DNA of 19,407 nucleotides from Candidatus Kaiserbacteria bacterium CG10_big_fil_rev_8_21_14_0_10_49_17 (GTDB lineage Bacteria; Patescibacteriota; Minisyncoccia; Phycocordibacterales; JABMNX01). A program made the position numbers and the translations under genes. The stretch covers positions 773-20,179 of the forward strand of contig PFBJ01000019.1 of assembly GCA_002778575.1 (NCBI GenBank), in the 5' to 3' direction. This document shows, piece after piece, positions 3,561 to 11,045 of this stretch. Every line of letters starts with the position of its first letter. Position 1 is the first letter of the stretch. The notes under the pieces are model-generated. The model was given only the letters and a program-made list of their open reading frames with translations. It was not told where the DNA came from and searched no databases.

Positions 3561-4871
3561 TTACCGCTCAAGTAAACTATTGAGAAGCGCCGAACCTTCA
3601 CTAATGGCCTCCGAGATGCGGAATCTGCCTGATGTCACGGATTCAATCATCCCCCGAAAGAGCGCCTCGGTTTCAACTGGGTCCGGATCACGGAAATTAC
3701 GCGCTGCAATTGCCGCATTGTAAAAGACCGTATCAAACGGATCGTCAGTGGAGCGGGAAAGTATATCGCGTCGCGGTGAAGGAAGGCCGGTCAATTCTGA
3801 AAAGAGAATACTCCCCTCTTCCGCCACCATAAGCGCGATGAGTTGGAGTGCTCCATCCGGATTACTGGAGCCTTTTGGAATTGCAAGACCTGTCATTCGC
3901 CCATACGAGACAACACTGGCATCGCGGGCCTGCGGGGCTAATGCGACATCAAAGTTTAAATTCGGATTCTGAGCGCGAATGCTCTGTATTTCACTTGCAA
4001 AACCAAGGTACATTGCAAGTTTCCCTCCGATAAATGCGGCGCGTGCTTCAGGAAGCGCGCGATTCCACGTATACACTGTCTTTGACGGATTTGAGAAGTC
4101 AGTGTAGAAACGCAGCGCCGTGACCGCCGGCGCTTCGGTGTTAGCAAAATCGTTACGATCCAAGTCCGAGGTGTGCCGTCCACTCGTATCGGTTGCCACA
4201 ATGGAAGAACCCGCCTGCATCATTAGTAGCGCGAGAATCTCTTTTGCGTGCGCAATATTTTGATACTCACCGAGTGCGATTGTGCTTTGGAATATGTTGC
4301 TTGCGGCATCTCGCGTTGTGAGGCGCTCGCTTGCAAGCACCTGCACCTCGTCCCAGTACCGAGGAGCGCGCGCCACACCCGAACCAGAAAAGATCGAACG
4401 ATTCCAGTACAGCACCATCGGATCAATGCTTATTGGGAATGCCAGAACCCCCGCGTCAGTTAAAAAAAGTTCTCCTTCCTCGATAAAAGTATCTTTGTAG
4501 TCCCGCTCAGAGAGGAAATCGTACGAAGCAGGGAGAAGTTTGTCACGGTGCTTGTGCGCAAGTGCTTGGTTTAGGAAAAACACATCCGGTCCACGTTGCG
4601 CCGCGAGCGCCTCAATGAGGTCCTGCTCGTAGGTGCGTGGATTCTTCTCAACGTACTCAACCGAATCCAAAAGCTCAGTATTATCACCAGCAAGTGCGCT
4701 GAAGTAGTCGAGCATTGCTGTCTTTGAGTATGTCCCCCACACTGTTACTTGGCCAACCTGCACCGTATCTCTGCCTAAACCACCGACTCCCGCAAATACA
4801 AGCACTCCGATGACTCCCATAACAGAGAAGAACCCTATGACACCGACTTGAAAAATACTGAGCTTTTTCAT
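3561..4871 (-). CDS. Extracellular solute-binding protein, ABC-transporter family-1 (MalE-like) fold, membrane-anchored
   Basis: N-terminal TM anchor. Pattern matches the N-lobe of periplasmic sugar-binding proteins (VTVWG...GPDVFF...A...). 436 aa. No permease or ATPase genes adjacent in the window. Confidence 0.65.
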   Translation of the reverse strand: MKKLSIFQVGVIGFFSVMGVIGVLVFAGVGGLGRDTVQVGQVTVWGTYSKTAMLDYFSALAGDNTELLDSVEYVEKNPRTYEQDLIEALAAQRGPDVFFLNQALAHKHRDKLLPASYDFLSERDYKDTFIEEGELFLTDAGVLAFPISIDPMVLYWNRSIFSGSGVARAPRYWDEVQVLASERLTTRDAASNIFQSTIALGEYQNIAHAKEILALLMMQAGSSIVATDTSGRHTSDLDRNDFANTEAPAVTALRFYTDFSNPSKTVYTWNRALPEARAAFIGGKLAMYLGFASEIQSIRAQNPNLNFDVALAPQARDASVVSYGRMTGLAIPKGSSNPDGALQLIALMVAEEGSILFSELTGLPSPRRDILSRSTDDPFDTVFYNAAIAARNFRDPDPVETEALFRGMIESVTSGRFRISEAISEGSALLNSLLER

Positions 4872-7932: not shown

Positions 7933-8295
7933 CTATTCTACCAAATCCTGAGGCTCTTCGCCAGCTTCAATAACTCCGTTTTCAGCGGTTGTACTCGCCT
8001 GAGGTTGTGGAATTGCCGTATCGGCGAATGTCTCTTGAATATCCTCGCCGGCTGTTGAAAATTGCTCCTGCAGGTCTGCGACAAATGCATTGAAGCCCGC
8101 GGAGCTTTCTGTCGTCTCACGTTCTGGAAATGTAACTGTCTCCAAACTACTTCTAAAATCAACAAGCCAAAACAAGAAAATAGCGAGCGTGATACTGCCG
8201 GCAACGCTAAATACTATAGTCTGCTTTTGATGCGCGGGTCGTGCCCGCACATTTTCAAGTATCTTAAAAAACATATTTTCGATACCGTTACGCAC
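7933..8295 (-). CDS. Hypothetical single-pass membrane protein with acidic C-terminal tail. The true start may be the ATG at 8274
   Basis: The ORF-track start at 8295 is GTG and overlaps the upstream gene by 8 nt. An in-frame ATG at 8274 gives MFFKILENV.... One TM helix (IVFSVAGSITLAIFLFWLV). No recognisable domain. Confidence 0.45.
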   Translation of the reverse strand: MRNGIENMFFKILENVRARPAHQKQTIVFSVAGSITLAIFLFWLVDFRSSLETVTFPERETTESSAGFNAFVADLQEQFSTAGEDIQETFADTAIPQPQASTTAENGVIEAGEEPQDLVE

Positions 8296-8920
8296 TGAGC
8301 AACACCACCTCGCCCGAGAGCGCTTCGGCCTCTTTTTGTTTAATGGTGAGTTTCTCTATCGGCTTCAGATTTTCAGAACCTGACTCCTTTAAAAATGTTT
8401 CGAGCGCTTTCTTCTCGCCGATCTCGCCGTAGTGAATCGGTACCACAATATGCGCTTCAAGCTTCACCGCGATGTCGTGCGCGTGCTTGGCGTCGAGCAC
8501 GCCATCTCCTCCGATTGGCACACACAAAACATGCACGGTATCGATGGATTCGAGTACTTTCGCGTCAATATCTTTTGTGCCAAGTGCCCCGAGAAAAAGA
8601 ATATCCATTCCTTCAAGTGTCACCTGATATATCGTGTTGGGTCTATTCGCGCCATTGTAATTTGAAATAGACGGAAAACCGTGCACAACGACACTGCCAA
8701 CTTCGTACTCACCGGGGCCAGTAATAACAAACGGTTCTTTTTCACCGTGCGTCACCTGCTCGACTCCATTCATGTCTGGGTCGTTGATAGAAATAAGCGC
8801 GACATCAGCGCCAAATCGAGCTCCTTTTAGTTTTGAATTCTTTGAAATGGGATTAAATGCAATCGTCGTTGAACCGACGCTCGCTTTAATACATTCTCCG
8901 CCATGGTAGGTGATAACCAT
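8288..8920 (-). CDS. Metallo-beta-lactamase-fold metal-dependent hydrolase (UPF0173-like)
   Basis: MVITYHGGECIKA...DP... N-terminus and overall pattern match the small MBL-fold hydrolase family. HxHxDH-equivalent region AKHAHDIAV. 210 aa. Confidence 0.7.
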   Translation of the reverse strand: MVITYHGGECIKASVGSTTIAFNPISKNSKLKGARFGADVALISINDPDMNGVEQVTHGEKEPFVITGPGEYEVGSVVVHGFPSISNYNGANRPNTIYQVTLEGMDILFLGALGTKDIDAKVLESIDTVHVLCVPIGGDGVLDAKHAHDIAVKLEAHIVVPIHYGEIGEKKALETFLKESGSENLKPIEKLTIKQKEAEALSGEVVLLSA

Positions 8921-8959
8921 ATGCGTGAGTATAGCAGATTTTATCCCTCAAACAGACTA

Positions 8960-8987
8960 TTGACACTAAACCTTCATTTCGTATAGT
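8960..8987 (+). promoter_or_regulatory. Near-consensus sigma70 promoter TTGACA-N16-TATAGT driving the GC-rich non-coding island
   Basis: TTGACA at 8960-8965 and TATAGT at 8982-8987, read directly. Predicted TSS about 8994. A minus-strand TATACT box (8933-8928) for the hydrolase gene lies just upstream, so this is a divergent promoter region. Confidence 0.65.
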
Positions 8988-8994
8988 TAAAGAG

Positions 8995-9299
8995 TACTGC
9001 TCTCCCAAGTGGTGCAACAGAGGGGCTGTCGTTCAGCCACCTGGCGGGACCATCGCAGCGGATGCTGTTCGACAGCCCTTCGCCACCTGTTCTTTAAATA
9101 CATTTTCTCTCGTACACCACCGGCGCCCACGCACCCCGACCCCCCGCCGATGGTGCACCCGGCCAGCCTAAGAGCACCCCCCCTCTTACGCTTGGCCCGC
9201 TGTCGGAACCTCCCTAGTTGCGTCCCCGCGCTACGGAAGCCTGGACCACCGGCAGCACCGGGCCGGCGCGCCAACACGCGCCGGTCCTTTTCCTTTTTT
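8995..9299 (+). ncRNA. Unidentified structured RNA, about 300 nt, GC-rich, bounded by its own promoter and terminator
   Basis: GC-rich island well above its surroundings. No ORF with protein-like composition in any frame (the 105-111 aa ORFs here are Pro/Arg/Ala-rich low-complexity artefacts). Long-range helix gggctgtcg(9023-9031)/cgacagccc(9071-9079). Strong promoter and terminator. Family not assignable by eye. Confidence 0.5.
9260..9299 (+). terminator. Intrinsic terminator: 11-bp GC stem GGGCCGGCGCG-ccaaca-CGCGCCGGTCC, then ttttccttttttg
   Basis: Read directly from the sequence. One G-U wobble in the stem. Confidence 0.75.
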
Positions 9300-9307
9300 G
9301 CACTTTT

Positions 9308-9337
9308 AATCAACTTAGTCATATGACTAAGTTGATT
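9308..9337. promoter_or_regulatory. Perfect 30-bp AT-rich palindrome aatcaacttagtcat|atgactaagttgatt, a candidate dimeric-protein operator
   Basis: 15/15 perfect inverted repeat centred on CATATG. Lies between the terminator of the first RNA and the promoter of the second. Confidence 0.45.
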
Positions 9338-9395
9338 CGGTCACCTACCAAAATTGGCTCTCTTTATGGAGTATTTTTGAAGTAGTAAAAGGTAC

Positions 9396-9423
9396 TTGAC
9401 AAATTTTATATATATGATAGTAT
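9396..9423 (+). promoter_or_regulatory. Sigma70-like promoter TTGACA-N16-TAGTAT, preceded by an AT-rich UP-like region
   Basis: TTGACA at 9396-9401, TAGTAT at 9418-9423. TSS about 9430. Confidence 0.55.
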
Positions 9424-9429
9424 TTTACT

Positions 9430-9767
9430 ACCCTGCGGAGAACGGCACGCCTAAATGGTGCTCCGTCGCCCGAGGGTATAGTGCCGGTTCGCATTGCCGG
9501 CGAATAATAAATTAAAATGAGGACCGCACGTTATGGGTACGTGTATGGAACTCGATGAGGGGCTGAGGGAGCCCACAGACTGACACATGATCTTTATGTC
9601 GCCCCGCAACGGCGACGCCGCATTGAGGGAAAAAGGGCGAGCCTCTGAATTCCGGTATGCCTTAAAGCTACACGCTTTAGGATGTACGGCATACACGCCA
9701 CCGCCGAGCGCCCCTCGAAACGCATAGGCGAGATCAAAGAGCCCAAATCTTGGGCTCTTTTCTTTTT
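9430..9767 (+). ncRNA. Second unidentified structured RNA of about 340 nt. Alternatively a long structured leader/attenuator of rpsA
   Basis: GC-rich. Only tiny ORFs. Begins after its own promoter and ends at a strong terminator 140 nt upstream of the rpsA ATG. Several local hairpins, e.g. GCCGG-uucgcauug-CCGGC at 9486-9504. Confidence 0.45.
9737..9767 (+). terminator. Intrinsic terminator: 10-bp stem AAGAGCCCAA-atc-TTGGGCTCTT, then ttctttttg
   Basis: Read directly. Confidence 0.75.
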
Positions 9768-9789
9768 GTATATATTTTGTATAGTGCAT

Positions 9790-9807
9790 ATGCTCCGTAC
9801 GGAGCAT
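9790..9807. promoter_or_regulatory. Perfect 18-bp palindrome atgctccgtacggagcat immediately after a TATAGT -10-like box (9780-9785), in the rpsA upstream region. A second hairpin atctgc-caaaaa-gcagat lies at 9819-9836
   Basis: Read directly. Could be an operator, an RNA hairpin in the rpsA 5'UTR, or both. Confidence 0.4.
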
Positions 9808-9908
9808 TTATTAACCACATCTGCCAAAAAGCAGATACGGTACGGGCTAACACTGCACTTGCTACAGCTACGAGAAATACATGCAGAACCCGACCGCTTT
9901 TTCTATTT

Positions 9909-11045
9909 ATGGACACAGATAAAACGAAAGAAAGAGAAGAAACAGTAGAGACCACCGAGGAGGAAGTTTCAAAAAAGAAACGGGAGTCATTCCTTGGGAC
10001 CCTACTTGAAAGTGGACCGACTCCCCCATCTGAGGGCGACCTCGTCGAGGGGCCGGTTATTGCTATCGAGCGCTCACGCGTCTACATCGATCTGCCGCCA
10101 TTCGGCACCGGTATTATTTACGGCAAGGAATTTATGAGTGCGCGCGATATTCTCCGAAAGGTGAATGTCGGTGACACTATTGCCGCTAAAGTCATCGACA
10201 CTGAGAACGAAGACGGCTACATTGAGGTCTCGCTTAAAGAAGCGCGCCAGGCGCTTATCTGGGCTGAAGCCGAAGATGTAATGAGCAACAAAAAGACCCT
10301 TGAACTTCCCGTGAAGGAAGCGAACAAGGGCGGTCTTATTATTGAATGGCAAGGTATTCAGGGGTTTCTCCCAGCGTCACAGCTCGGCCCTGAGCACTAC
10401 CCGCGTGTCGAGGACGGTGACAAAGACCGTATTCTTGATGAATTGAAAAAACTTGTCGGAGAAAAACTCTCCCTCTCAATCATTACTGCAGATCCAAAAG
10501 AGAACAAACTTATTTTCTCCGAAAAGGGGGCAGACCAAAAAGAGCGCGCTGAAATGATAGACCGGTACAGCATCGGTGACGAACTTGTAGGAGAGGTGAC
10601 CGGCGCGGTTGACTTTGGCATCTTCGTAAAACTGCAGGAAGGGCTCGAAGGGCTTGTGCATATATCTGAAATTGACTGGGCGCTTGTTGAGGATCCTCGT
10701 TCGCTCTACCGTGTTGGAGATACGGTGAAAGTGAAAATTATTGAGATAAAGGACGGCAAAATTTCACTTTCCATTAAAGCGCTCCGTGAAAATCCATGGA
10801 AGAGCGCGTCGGAGAAATACAAGAAAGATGCACGAGTGAAAGGAGTTATCATCAAGTACAACAAGCACGGCGCACTTGCCTCAATCGAAGAAGGTGTTGC
10901 GGGGCTTGTGCACATCTCTGAATTTGAAGACGAGCAGGAATTGCGCAACACACTTGAACTTGGGCGTACCTACGACTTCGTGATTACTCTTTTTGAGCCG
11001 GATGAACAGCGCATGACGCTTTCATACAAACAGGCACAAGAATAG
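9909..11045 (+). CDS. rpsA: 30S ribosomal protein S1, short four-S1-domain form
   Basis: Repeated S1/OB motifs (GDLVEGPVIAIERSRVYIDL..., GDTVKVKIIEIKDGKISLSIKA, GVIIKYNKHGALASIEEGVAGLVHISEF). Acidic N-terminus. Start taken at the first ATG (9909) after the upstream terminator and promoter; the ORF-track start at 9750 is a TTG inside the terminator. Confidence 0.75.
   Translation: MDTDKTKEREETVETTEEEVSKKKRESFLGTLLESGPTPPSEGDLVEGPVIAIERSRVYIDLPPFGTGIIYGKEFMSARDILRKVNVGDTIAAKVIDTENEDGYIEVSLKEARQALIWAEAEDVMSNKKTLELPVKEANKGGLIIEWQGIQGFLPASQLGPEHYPRVEDGDKDRILDELKKLVGEKLSLSIITADPKENKLIFSEKGADQKERAEMIDRYSIGDELVGEVTGAVDFGIFVKLQEGLEGLVHISEIDWALVEDPRSLYRVGDTVKVKIIEIKDGKISLSIKALRENPWKSASEKYKKDARVKGVIIKYNKHGALASIEEGVAGLVHISEFEDEQELRNTLELGRTYDFVITLFEPDEQRMTLSYKQAQE

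What the first reader, a model, noticed from the sequence alone, without database searches (positions are those of the whole stretch)
9396..9908. Second promoter-to-terminator GC-rich RNA, immediately upstream of rpsA: independent sRNA or long attenuating leader
TTGACA-16-TAGTAT is followed by about 340 nt of GC-rich, ORF-free sequence that ends in a 10-bp-stem terminator. The terminator is then followed by a TATAGT box, a perfect 18-bp palindrome and a second hairpin before the rpsA ATG, which has no SD. In E. coli, S1 is autoregulated through its structured leader. This region could therefore be an S1-sensing attenuator (terminator/antiterminator) or a separate small RNA. Two adjacent unexplained structured RNAs in a streamlined genome is unusual.
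Basis: partly seen in the sequence, partly recalled or inferred. Interest (0 to 1): 0.65.

Follow-up and report, generated by a model that had tools for sequence, protein, structure and literature searches.

The report
Orphan small RNA unit beside rpsA
The promoter-to-terminator stretch is a self-contained, lineage-specific small transcript inserted just upstream of the S1 gene, not part of its leader; S1 has its own short structured leader, which many related bacteria share and which no RNA family catalogue lists.

Summary
The window comes from a Candidatus Kaiserbacteria (CPR/Paceibacteria) genome. In detail: a near-consensus extended -10 promoter (9396-9423), about 306 nt of structured sequence and a strong intrinsic terminator (9736-9770). 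It is followed by TATAGT, an 18-nt palindrome and an rpsA start without SD. 'GC-rich' is modest (56.5% against 49.6%). 'ORF-free' is loose, but no ORF there looks real.

This unit ('B') is not the rpsA leader. Syntenic relatives have MBL-to-rpsA spacers of 107 to 1392 nt, and none contains B. B matches nothing in Rfam, phages, plasmids, 108 related loci or a metagenome scan. Its terminator has no competing antiterminator.

The real rpsA leader lies at 9790-9908. It consists of a 5' hairpin, a UUAUUA box, two nested helices around an unpaired CUAAC loop, and a conserved ACGGCNACGAGA loop. A covariance model finds this motif upstream of rpsA in 38 related loci, with 94% pairing and compensatory changes in 13 of 14 pairs.

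B is best read as an orphan, independently transcribed small RNA. It is one of several unrelated cassettes that accumulate in this spacer. Its function is unknown.

The parts
9396..9423 (+). Promoter of unit B: -35 TTGACA (9396-9401), 16-nt spacer, TG (9415-9416), -10 TAGTAT (9418-9423). The predicted start is near A9430.
   Evidence: 10/12 matches, TG before the -10; sequence read.
9430..9735 (+). Body of unit B, about 306 nt and 56.5% GC. Predicted hairpins at 9430-9477, 9482-9502, 9519-9553, 9560-9574, 9598-9616 and 9652-9693. A single-stranded A/U-rich linker lies at 9503-9518. There is no detectable homologue.
   Evidence: Fold (z -2.99). No Rfam hit. No tRNA or tmRNA. No nhmmer, tblastn or BLAST hit. 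No coding signal.
9533..9583 (+). 16-codon ORF (MGTCMELDEGLREPTD) preceded by GAGGA (9519-9523) with a 9-nt spacer. After its TGA, the same frame stays open through a 46-codon ORF (9587-9727). Probably not translated.
   Evidence: codon score -0.22, against 0.36 +/- 0.11 for real genes. (0 hits for the 46-aa part among 1.84 billion representatives). (genes of this genome mostly lack SD).
9736..9770 (+). Intrinsic terminator of unit B: 11-bp stem AAAGAGCCCAA/UUGGGCUCUUU, loop AUC, then a U-tract.
   Evidence: -15 kcal/mol, pairing probability 0.98-1.0. In the nascent transcript the 5' arm is mostly unpaired, so no antiterminator is predicted.
9780..9785 (+). rpsA-proximal -10 box TATAGT. The -35 is weak: best is TTTTCT with a 16-nt spacer, 3/6. 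The box sits in the same register to the first leader hairpin as in relatives.
   Evidence: TATAGT/TATACT a few nt before hairpin H1 in most of 40 relatives. (ATTTYGTATAGT repeated at A's -10 and here). This promoter falls below the threshold of the scan.
9790..9814 (+). Leader hairpin H1 (18-nt palindrome 9790-9807), followed directly by the A/U box UUAUUAA (9808-9814).
   Evidence: I5. In relatives a hairpin of unrelated sequence abuts (U)UUAUUA.
9819..9836 (+). Window-specific extra hairpin AUCUGC-CAAAAA-GCAGAU.
   Evidence: It appears as an insertion relative to the other 39 aligned leaders.
9837..9896 (+). Core of the conserved rpsA-leader motif:
- P2: 9838-9846 with 9889-9896
- unpaired CUAACA: 9847-9852
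- P3: 9853-9857 with 9882-9886
- loop carrying ACAGCUACGAGAAAUAC: 9864-9880
   Evidence: This is the best hit of models R2 and R3 in the whole window: 9834-9896 at 13.8 bits, E 0.12, and 11.6 bits, E 0.45. The unconstrained MFE gives the same nesting.
9897..9911 (+). U-rich 12-nt spacer without SD, then the rpsA start codon ATG (9909-9911). rpsA runs to 11045 (378 aa).
   Evidence: (three matched S1 stretches). (100% identical to the S1 protein of Candidatus Kaiserbacteria CG10_big_fil_rev_8_21_14_0_10_49).

Best explanation
Unit B (9396-9770) is a self-contained, lineage-specific transcription unit.

How it is made:
- A near-consensus extended -10 promoter starts an RNA near 9430.
- A strong, unregulated intrinsic terminator ends it near 9768, giving a hairpin-rich RNA of about 330-340 nt.
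- The RNA is most likely non-coding. Whatever it does, it does in trans.

Where it sits:
- B lies in a spacer between the divergently transcribed MBL-fold gene and rpsA.
- In this clade the spacer repeatedly acquires unrelated promoter-to-terminator cassettes.
- B is the newest cassette here. It was inserted between an older cassette (A, 8960-9297) and the rpsA -10 box.

How rpsA is controlled:
- rpsA is transcribed mainly from its own proximal promoter (-10 at 9780-9785).
- Its control lies in a separate SD-less leader (9790-9908) conserved across Paceibacteria.
- By analogy with other ribosomal-protein leaders, that leader is probably the site of feedback by S1.

Status of each step:
- Shown: the anatomy, the absence of B from relatives, the absence of an antiterminator, the lack of coding signal, and the conservation and covariation of the leader.
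- Inferred: that B is actually transcribed, that it acts in trans, and that S1 binds the leader.
For: - Promoter and terminator are in the same orientation, about 306 nt apart.
- The terminator is -15 kcal/mol, forms with probability about 1, and has no alternative partner for its 5' arm.
- B folds better than shuffles, z -2.99.
- Codon-usage scores of all B frames and of the minus-strand ORF lie below every 64-codon window of real genes.
- The ORFs have no homologues and no Pfam hit.
- Gene order gyrA-hyp-MBL | rpsA-pth-lepB-hisS is shared by relatives whose MBL-rpsA spacer is 107, 185, 293, 530, about 620, 907, 976 or 1392 nt. None of them has B.
- A's terminator is homologous to that of the cassette in L088 (score 32, shuffle maximum 25). 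In L088 the terminator is followed directly by the rpsA promoter. B is therefore an extra insertion.
- The leader motif is found upstream of rpsA in 34 to 38 loci and essentially nowhere else in 665 kb. Pairing is 94.2%, 13 of 14 pairs have compensatory changes, 0 of 500 shuffles do as well, and slid controls give 37-45%.
- 30 of 39 leaders give the nested fold by MFE alone, against 16% for shuffled flanks.
Against: - No transcript data exist, so promoter and terminator use is predicted only.
- B is a singleton. There is no covariation or conservation to show that the RNA is functional.
- The reverse strand folds almost as well, z -2.47.
- The rpsA-proximal promoter has a poor -35 in this genome. 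Read-through from B could therefore contribute to rpsA transcription.
- B has the same layout as the putative small-ORF cassettes of relatives: structured 5' part, A/U linker, GAGGA, ATG, structured 3' part, terminator. A micropeptide mRNA is therefore not excluded.
- The window's leader scores only E 0.12 to 0.45 with the family model.
Confidence: 0.6

Rival explanations
1. B is the mRNA of a micropeptide. Either the 16-aa ORF 9533-9583 is translated, or a 64-aa product arises if the in-frame TGA at 9581-9583 is read through. Alternatively it is a recently inactivated version of such a gene. In this reading it is built like the putative small-ORF cassettes found at the same place in relatives.
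For: - GAGGA lies 9 nt before the ATG, and the frame stays open to 9727, 9 nt before the terminator.
- Relatives carry, at this position, a promoter, a 5' hairpin, a strong SD, a 22-56-codon ORF, a structured 3' part and a terminator.
- The L002 and L019 peptides are homologous to each other, E about 1e-7.
Against: - The codon-usage score of -0.22 is below all real-gene windows.
- The 46-aa part has 0 hits in 1.84 billion representatives.
- A profile of the L002/L019 peptides does not hit B, even with the stop removed.
- Genes of this genome mostly lack SD, so GAGGA is weak evidence.
- A 46-codon open frame is expected by chance at this GC content.
Confidence: 0.15
2. B is a transcribed or untranscribed relic with no present function. 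It would be a decaying inserted cassette whose promoter-like and terminator-like ends survive.
For: - B is a singleton with no homologue anywhere searched.
- Its neighbour A looks like a degenerate copy of a cassette that carries an ORF in relatives.
- There is an in-frame stop inside the only long plus-strand frame.
- Structure scores are not strand-specific.
Against: - The promoter is near consensus with an extended -10.
- The terminator is perfect: 11 of 11 pairs followed by a U-tract.
- This is unexpected for decaying sequence in a small, compact genome where other spacers have a median of 70 nt.
Confidence: 0.15
3. B is a long attenuating leader of rpsA. Transcription would start at 9430, and the 9736-9760 hairpin would act as an S1-responsive terminator/antiterminator switch.
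For: - B lies directly upstream of rpsA on the same strand.
- The proximal rpsA promoter has a weak -35.
- In E. coli, S1 represses its own mRNA through a structured SD-less leader (established knowledge).
Against: - There is no alternative pairing for the terminator.
- There is no exceptional complementarity between B and the leader.
- B is absent from all syntenic relatives, whereas the -10 box and the leader are conserved downstream of B's terminator.
- L081 also has a weak -35 and no cassette at all.
Confidence: 0.07
4. The region encodes the 118-aa protein annotated by JGI on the minus strand (9451-9807).
For: A gene caller predicted it on the identical JGI contig.
Against: - Among 5.8 billion proteins, the only match is the identical sequence itself.
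- There is no Pfam hit.
- The codon score is -0.08, against 0.36 +/- 0.11 for real genes.
- The ORF would start inside the conserved rpsA leader hairpin and run antisense through a plus-strand terminator and promoter.
Confidence: 0.02

Closest known systems
Stand-alone intergenic bacterial sRNA genes (own sigma-70 promoter to intrinsic terminator)
   Same: B has a near-consensus promoter, a discrete hairpin-rich body of about 330 nt, a strong Rho-independent terminator, and no coding signal.
   Different: B has no homologue, no known target or partner, and no expression data. At about 330 nt it is longer than typical base-pairing sRNAs. Such RNAs are essentially uncharacterised in CPR bacteria.
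E. coli rpsA (S1) autoregulatory leader (established knowledge: three hairpins, A/U-rich single strands, no SD, repressed by free S1)
   Same: The true leader at 9790-9908 is SD-less and consists of hairpins separated by A/U-rich single strands just before the rpsA AUG.
   Different: There is no sequence or structural homology. The Paceibacteria motif has its own signature: a UUAUUA box, P2 / CUAACCC / P3, and an ACGGCNACGAGANAC loop. S1 binding is untested. Unit B is not part of the leader.
Ribosomal-protein leader candidates found by comparative genomics (for example Eckert and Weinberg 2020, PMC7247131; Rfam r-leader families)
   Same: It is a conserved, covarying structure immediately upstream of a single ribosomal-protein gene across a bacterial lineage.
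   Different: The text search of that paper found no S1/rpsA leader and no CPR lineage. No Rfam 15 family matches the window or 23 related loci.
Leader-peptide transcription attenuators (trp-type)
   Same: The order is promoter, short ORF, terminator, downstream gene.
   Different: About 150 nt with several independent hairpins separate the ORF from the terminator. No antiterminator is predicted. The peptide has no run of regulatory codons. The element is not conserved upstream of rpsA.

Membership tests
Terminator/antiterminator attenuator of rpsA | A mutually exclusive antiterminator pairing that competes with the terminator stem | tested here: not met
   in the nascent transcript 9430-9748, bases 9737-9748 are 52-98% unpaired and no partner exceeds 0.17. 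In the full transcript the stem forms with probability 0.98-1.0.
Terminator/antiterminator attenuator of rpsA | The element is conserved upstream of the regulated gene in related genomes | tested here: not met
   nhmmer of B against 108 loci finds only the identical contig L089. Syntenic spacers of 107-293 nt cannot hold it.
Terminator/antiterminator attenuator of rpsA | No promoter between the terminator and the regulated gene | tested here: inconclusive
   TATAGT at 9780-9785 sits in the same register to hairpin H1 as in relatives. Its -35 is weak, and the promoter falls below the threshold of the scan. Function is not shown.
Known RNA families (Rfam 15: RNase P, tmRNA, 6S, SRP, riboswitches, r-protein leaders, sRNAs) | A covariance-model match at the family's gathering score | tested here: not met
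   There are 0 matches at the gathering score in the window. At E up to 10, 8900-9950 gives only far sub-threshold hits. ARAGORN finds no tRNA or tmRNA.
Stand-alone sRNA gene | Own promoter and own intrinsic terminator on the same strand | tested here: met
Stand-alone sRNA gene | No protein-coding signal | tested here: met
   Codon-usage scores. No homologues. No Pfam hit.
Stand-alone sRNA gene | Conservation, or covariation of structure, in relatives | tested here: not met
   B is a singleton.
Stand-alone sRNA gene | A discrete transcript is detected | not testable with these tools
   No transcriptome data are available.
Small-ORF cassettes seen upstream of rpsA in relatives | SD plus start codon, and a peptide related to those of other cassettes | tested here: not met
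   GAGGA, 9 nt, ATG is present. However, a profile of the L002/L019 peptides does not hit any B frame. Six-frame tblastn against the loci gives nothing.
Paceibacteria rpsA-leader motif (defined here, models R1-R3) | Nested helices P2 and P3 around an unpaired UAAC(C) loop, supported by covariation | tested here: met
   Family: 94.2% paired, 13 of 14 pairs with compensatory change, 0 of 500 shuffles as good. 30 of 39 leaders show the fold by MFE alone, against 16% of shuffled controls. Window: the MFE fold has the same nesting.
Paceibacteria rpsA-leader motif (defined here, models R1-R3) | A significant covariance-model score for the window's copy | tested here: inconclusive
   It is the top hit in the 19.4-kb window on both strands and lies at the right place (9834-9896). 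But it scores only 13.8 bits, E 0.12 (R2), and 11.6 bits, E 0.45 (R3).
Paceibacteria rpsA-leader motif (defined here, models R1-R3) | Conserved loop ACGGCNACGAGANAC, and a position 10-20 nt before an SD-less rpsA AUG | tested here: met
   The window has ACAGCUACGAGAAAUAC at 9864-9880. The motif ends 12 nt before ATG 9909.
E. coli-type S1 autoregulatory leader | Binding and translational repression by free S1 | not testable with these tools
   This needs biochemistry. Only the SD-less, hairpin plus A/U-rich layout could be checked, and it is met.

The most novel reading that the evidence does not exclude
The spacer between the MBL-fold gene and rpsA may be a promoter-proximal insertion hot spot in Kaiserbacteria-like CPR bacteria. 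It would collect tiny self-contained promoter-RNA-terminator cassettes, some with micro-ORFs.

B would be the latest arrival. Possible footprints of its insertion:
- a relic of the ancestral rpsA promoter at about 9300-9328;
- a 30-nt perfect palindrome at 9308-9337;
- a duplicated -10 segment, ATTTYGTATAGT.

This would imply either an unrecognised class of minimal non-autonomous mobile cassettes that target a strong promoter, or a functional link between these RNAs or peptides and S1 or the ribosome.
Probability: 0.12. Interest if true: 0.7.

Novelty: new member of a known kind. Interest (0 to 1): 0.4.

Why it matters
- Regulatory RNAs of CPR/Patescibacteria are almost unknown. These genomes are small and compact, so two strongly promoted non-coding units in one spacer stand out.
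One is an orphan, probably non-coding transcript (B), whose function can only be reached by transcriptomics. The other is a widely conserved, covarying, SD-less rpsA leader, which is a good candidate for S1 feedback control.
- That leader sits in a lineage where most genes appear leaderless or SD-less. It is absent from Rfam 15 and can be tested directly with S1 binding or toeprinting.
- The variable cassette spacer is also a convenient marker of recent genome change in these uncultured organisms.

Tried and rejected
- **Known RNA family.** Rfam at gathering and at E up to 10, and ARAGORN: nothing. RNase P-like and T-loop-like strings seen by eye were not supported by any model.
- **Homologues of B.**
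  - nhmmer against 108 loci: none.
  - Six-frame tblastn against the loci: none.
  - blastn against phages and plasmids: none.
  - A 19-mer metagenome scan gave 13 chance matches with no extended similarity.
- **Antiterminator or pairing with the rpsA leader.** Rejected. The first duplex test timed out. The full-length duplexfold output was uninformative, so I replaced it with a 30-nt windowed test against dinucleotide shuffles.
- **A and B as paralogues or mutual partners.** No similarity and no exceptional duplex.
- **Coding readings.**
  - The minus-strand 118-aa ORF is an orphan.
  - The 46-aa ORF has 0 hits.
  - A resemblance I saw by eye between B's frame (D*HMIFMSP) and the L002/L019 peptides (DH..FLNMSP) failed a profile test.
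- **Small-ORF family.** The word-index search with the L002 peptide found nothing, and a 38-aa query was too short. Only L002 and L019 are significantly alike.
- **Leader alignment.** Plain MAFFT of the leaders gave no consensus structure. Iterative covariance models were needed.
- **H1 hairpin detector.** An automated detector was too strict, finding 17 of 37. H1 conservation therefore rests mainly on inspection.

Full report
**Source and context.** The S1 protein encoded at 9909-11045 is 100% identical to that of Candidatus Kaiserbacteria bacterium CG10_big_fil_rev_8_21_14_0_10_49. The next best match among 5.8 billion proteins is 79% identical. The neighbourhood is gyrA(-), a hypothetical gene(-), an MBL-fold gene(-, 8288-8920), a 988-nt spacer, then rpsA(+), pth(-), lepB, hisS, ftsA, ftsZ and trxB. 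An identical JGI contig exists (L089).

**Checking the observation.**
- The scan finds TTGACA-16-TAGTAT with an upstream TG at 9396-9423.
- It finds an 11-pair terminator at 9736-9760 followed by a U-tract.
- A second unit of the same design lies just upstream: unit A, promoter 8960-8987 and terminator 9260-9287.
- The hairpin of B's terminator is -15 kcal/mol and forms with probability about 1.
- B's body folds better than all 100 dinucleotide shuffles (z -2.99). The opposite strand scores z -2.47, so this is not strand-specific evidence.
- B is only moderately GC-rich: 56.5% against 49.6% for the window and 64.7% for A.
- B is not strictly ORF-free. JGI called the 118-aa minus-strand ORF a gene.
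- That ORF matches only itself among 5.8 billion proteins and has no Pfam hit. Its codon score is -0.08, against 0.36 +/- 0.11 for real genes of the window.
- On the plus strand, a 16-codon ORF with GAGGA 9 nt upstream and a 46-codon ORF share one frame, separated by a TGA. The frame scores -0.22, below every real-gene window. The 46-aa part has no hit among 1.84 billion representatives.

**Is B a known RNA?** No. Rfam 15 gives no match at gathering score. At E up to 10 only far sub-threshold hits appear. ARAGORN finds nothing.

**Is B part of the rpsA leader?**
- I fetched 80 rpsA loci from GTDB species representatives and 15 loci of the closest S1 proteins.
- nhmmer with B, with A or with the window's own leader finds only the identical contig. 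The one exception is a leader hit in L107.
- The nearest relatives keep the same gene order, but the MBL-to-rpsA spacer varies widely:

| Locus | Spacer (nt) |
|---|---|
| L107 | 107 |
| L081 | 185 |
| L084 | 293 |
| L088 | 530 |
| L003 | about 620 |
| L106 | 907 |
| L108 | 976, including a 240-aa ORF |
| window | 988 |
| L103 | 1392 |

- The short spacers hold just a -10 box and a leader.
- The longer ones hold one to three unrelated units, each with its own promoter and terminator. Several have a strong SD and a 22-56-codon ORF followed by a long structured 3' part.
- Across 69 loci the spacer before rpsA is at least 500 nt in 14. Only 5% of other spacers are that long.
- A's terminator and the sequence after it are homologous to those of the L088 cassette (score 32, shuffle maximum 25).
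- In L088 that terminator is followed at once by the rpsA promoter TTGCAA-17-TATAGT.
- B, together with the 30-nt palindrome at 9308-9337, is therefore an additional insertion in the window's lineage.
- The terminator has no competing structure. B shows no exceptional complementarity to A or to the leader.
- The attenuator reading is therefore not supported.

**The real leader.**
- Aligned by eye, 40 leaders share the following order:
  1. a -10 box (usually TATAGT);
  2. a hairpin of variable sequence;
  3. (U)UUAUUA;
  4. an outer helix;
  5. an unpaired (C/G)UAACC(C/U);
  6. an inner helix;
  7. a loop with ACGGCNACGAGANAC;
  8. the closing strands;
  9. 10-20 A/U-rich nt and an AUG without SD.
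- MAFFT alone could not align this.
- A 10-sequence seed showed 11 of 16 pairs with compensatory changes.
- Three rounds of covariance models (R1-R3) found 25, then 34, then 38 copies. All are on the rpsA strand and immediately upstream of rpsA, in 665 kb searched. There was one marginal stray hit (E 1.2).
- On the 34-sequence alignment, 94.2% of cells pair and 13 of 14 pairs show double changes. 0 of 500 shuffles reach the observed values, and slid controls give 37-45% pairing. That alignment is fitted to the model.
- As an independent check, the unconstrained MFE gives the nested P2/UAAC/P3 fold in 30 of 39 leaders, against 16% after shuffling the flanks.
- In the window, the top model hit on either strand is 9834-9896 (13.8 bits, E 0.12; 11.6 bits, E 0.45). 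It carries CUAACA and ACAGCUACGAGAAAUAC, and its MFE shows the same nesting. Membership is convincing by position and motif but statistically marginal.
- No Rfam family matches this leader in the window or in 23 related loci.
- A text search of the main comparative study of ribosomal leaders found no S1/rpsA leader and no mention of CPR.
- Most other genes in the window have no SD, and several have a -10 box only 6-11 nt before the ATG. The long structured rpsA leader is therefore exceptional here.

**Mechanism.**
- I take B to be an independently transcribed, constitutively terminated RNA of about 330-340 nt. It is most likely non-coding and acts in trans, if it acts at all (confidence 0.6).
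- rpsA would be expressed from its proximal promoter and controlled through the conserved leader, most plausibly by S1 itself. This is an inference by analogy with E. coli S1 and other ribosomal-protein leaders.
- The proximal promoter has a weak -35 (best 3/6). L081, which has no cassette, has a weak -35 too. Some read-through from B cannot be excluded.

**Novelty and interest.**
- B is an orphan sRNA-like unit: a new member of a well-known kind, with no handle on function.
- The more useful result is the conserved Paceibacteria rpsA leader, a new ribosomal-protein-leader candidate with solid covariation.
- The cassette-collecting spacer is a second, more speculative lead.
- Overall interest is moderate.

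Noticed in passing
window 8960-9297: Unit A has promoter TTGACA-16-TATAGT (11/12), a C-rich body of about 270 nt (64.7% GC, GC skew about -0.3) and an 11-bp terminator. It folds at z = -5.7 and has no Rfam hit. Its terminator and the sequence after it are homologous to the cassette in L088, and by eye to the one in L106. Those cassettes carry a strong SD and a 26- or 38-codon ORF. A has no such ORF.
   Followed up: partly
window 9308-9337: A perfect 30-nt palindrome, AATCAACTTAGTCAT/ATGACTAAGTTGATT, lies between A's terminator and B's promoter. It is unique in the window and absent from the other loci. Its left half aligns by eye with the spacer of the rpsA promoter of L088. It may be a footprint of B's insertion or an operator.
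   Followed up: partly
window 8976-8987 and 9774-9785: A 12-nt direct repeat, ATTT(C/T)GTATAGT, covers the -10 box of unit A and the -10 box next to rpsA. It suggests that promoter segments were duplicated when cassettes entered. It could also be chance plus -10 constraint.
   Followed up: no
L002 3162-3332, L019 365-508, L088 2696-2776, L106 2069-2185, L103 1324-1464, L003 3506-3655, L016, L012, L056, L013: Putative small-ORF cassettes lie upstream of rpsA. Each has a strong promoter, a 5' hairpin, AGGAGG-type SD, a GC-rich 22-56-codon ORF, a stop often followed by (T)CGGC/CCGGC, a structured 3' part of 100-340 nt, and a terminator. Only the L002 and L019 peptides are significantly alike (E about 1e-7), and they differ by synonymous changes (seen by eye). 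No homologues were found in the protein database.
   Followed up: partly
L084 2740-2880; L016 about 3590-3790: Short promoter-to-terminator RNAs upstream of rpsA carry a perfect Shine-Dalgarno-like AAGGAGGUG (L084) or AGGAGGUGAUC (L016) with no usable start codon after it. They may be anti-SD-binding RNAs.
   Followed up: no
L070 3508-3700: A csrA-like gene ([48 protein letters not shown]..., identified by eye) occupies the cassette position directly upstream of the rpsA leader.
   Followed up: no
window, starts of genes at 8920(-), 4871(-), 18375-side trxB 17332(+), gyrA 7923(-), pth 12223(-): Most genes lack an SD. Several have a -10-like box (TATACT, TATAGT, TACAAT, TAGAAT) only 6-11 nt before the ATG. 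This suggests widespread leaderless or near-leaderless mRNAs in this genome.
   Followed up: partly
window 9451-9807 (-) = L089 950-1306: JGI annotates a 118-aa hypothetical protein antisense to unit B. It is an orphan with non-genic codon usage and is almost certainly a false gene call.
   Followed up: yes
L038 3640-3700; L055 60-100: Long poly-G and poly-C runs and N-runs occur next to the rpsA leader in two MAG contigs. They are probably assembly or scaffolding artefacts.
   Followed up: no
L001 3245-3762: A 62%-GC gene for a protein of about 170 aa with an N-terminal signal-like peptide sits in a 43%-GC genome, between a strong promoter and the rpsA promoter. Its composition suggests recent acquisition.
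   Followed up: no
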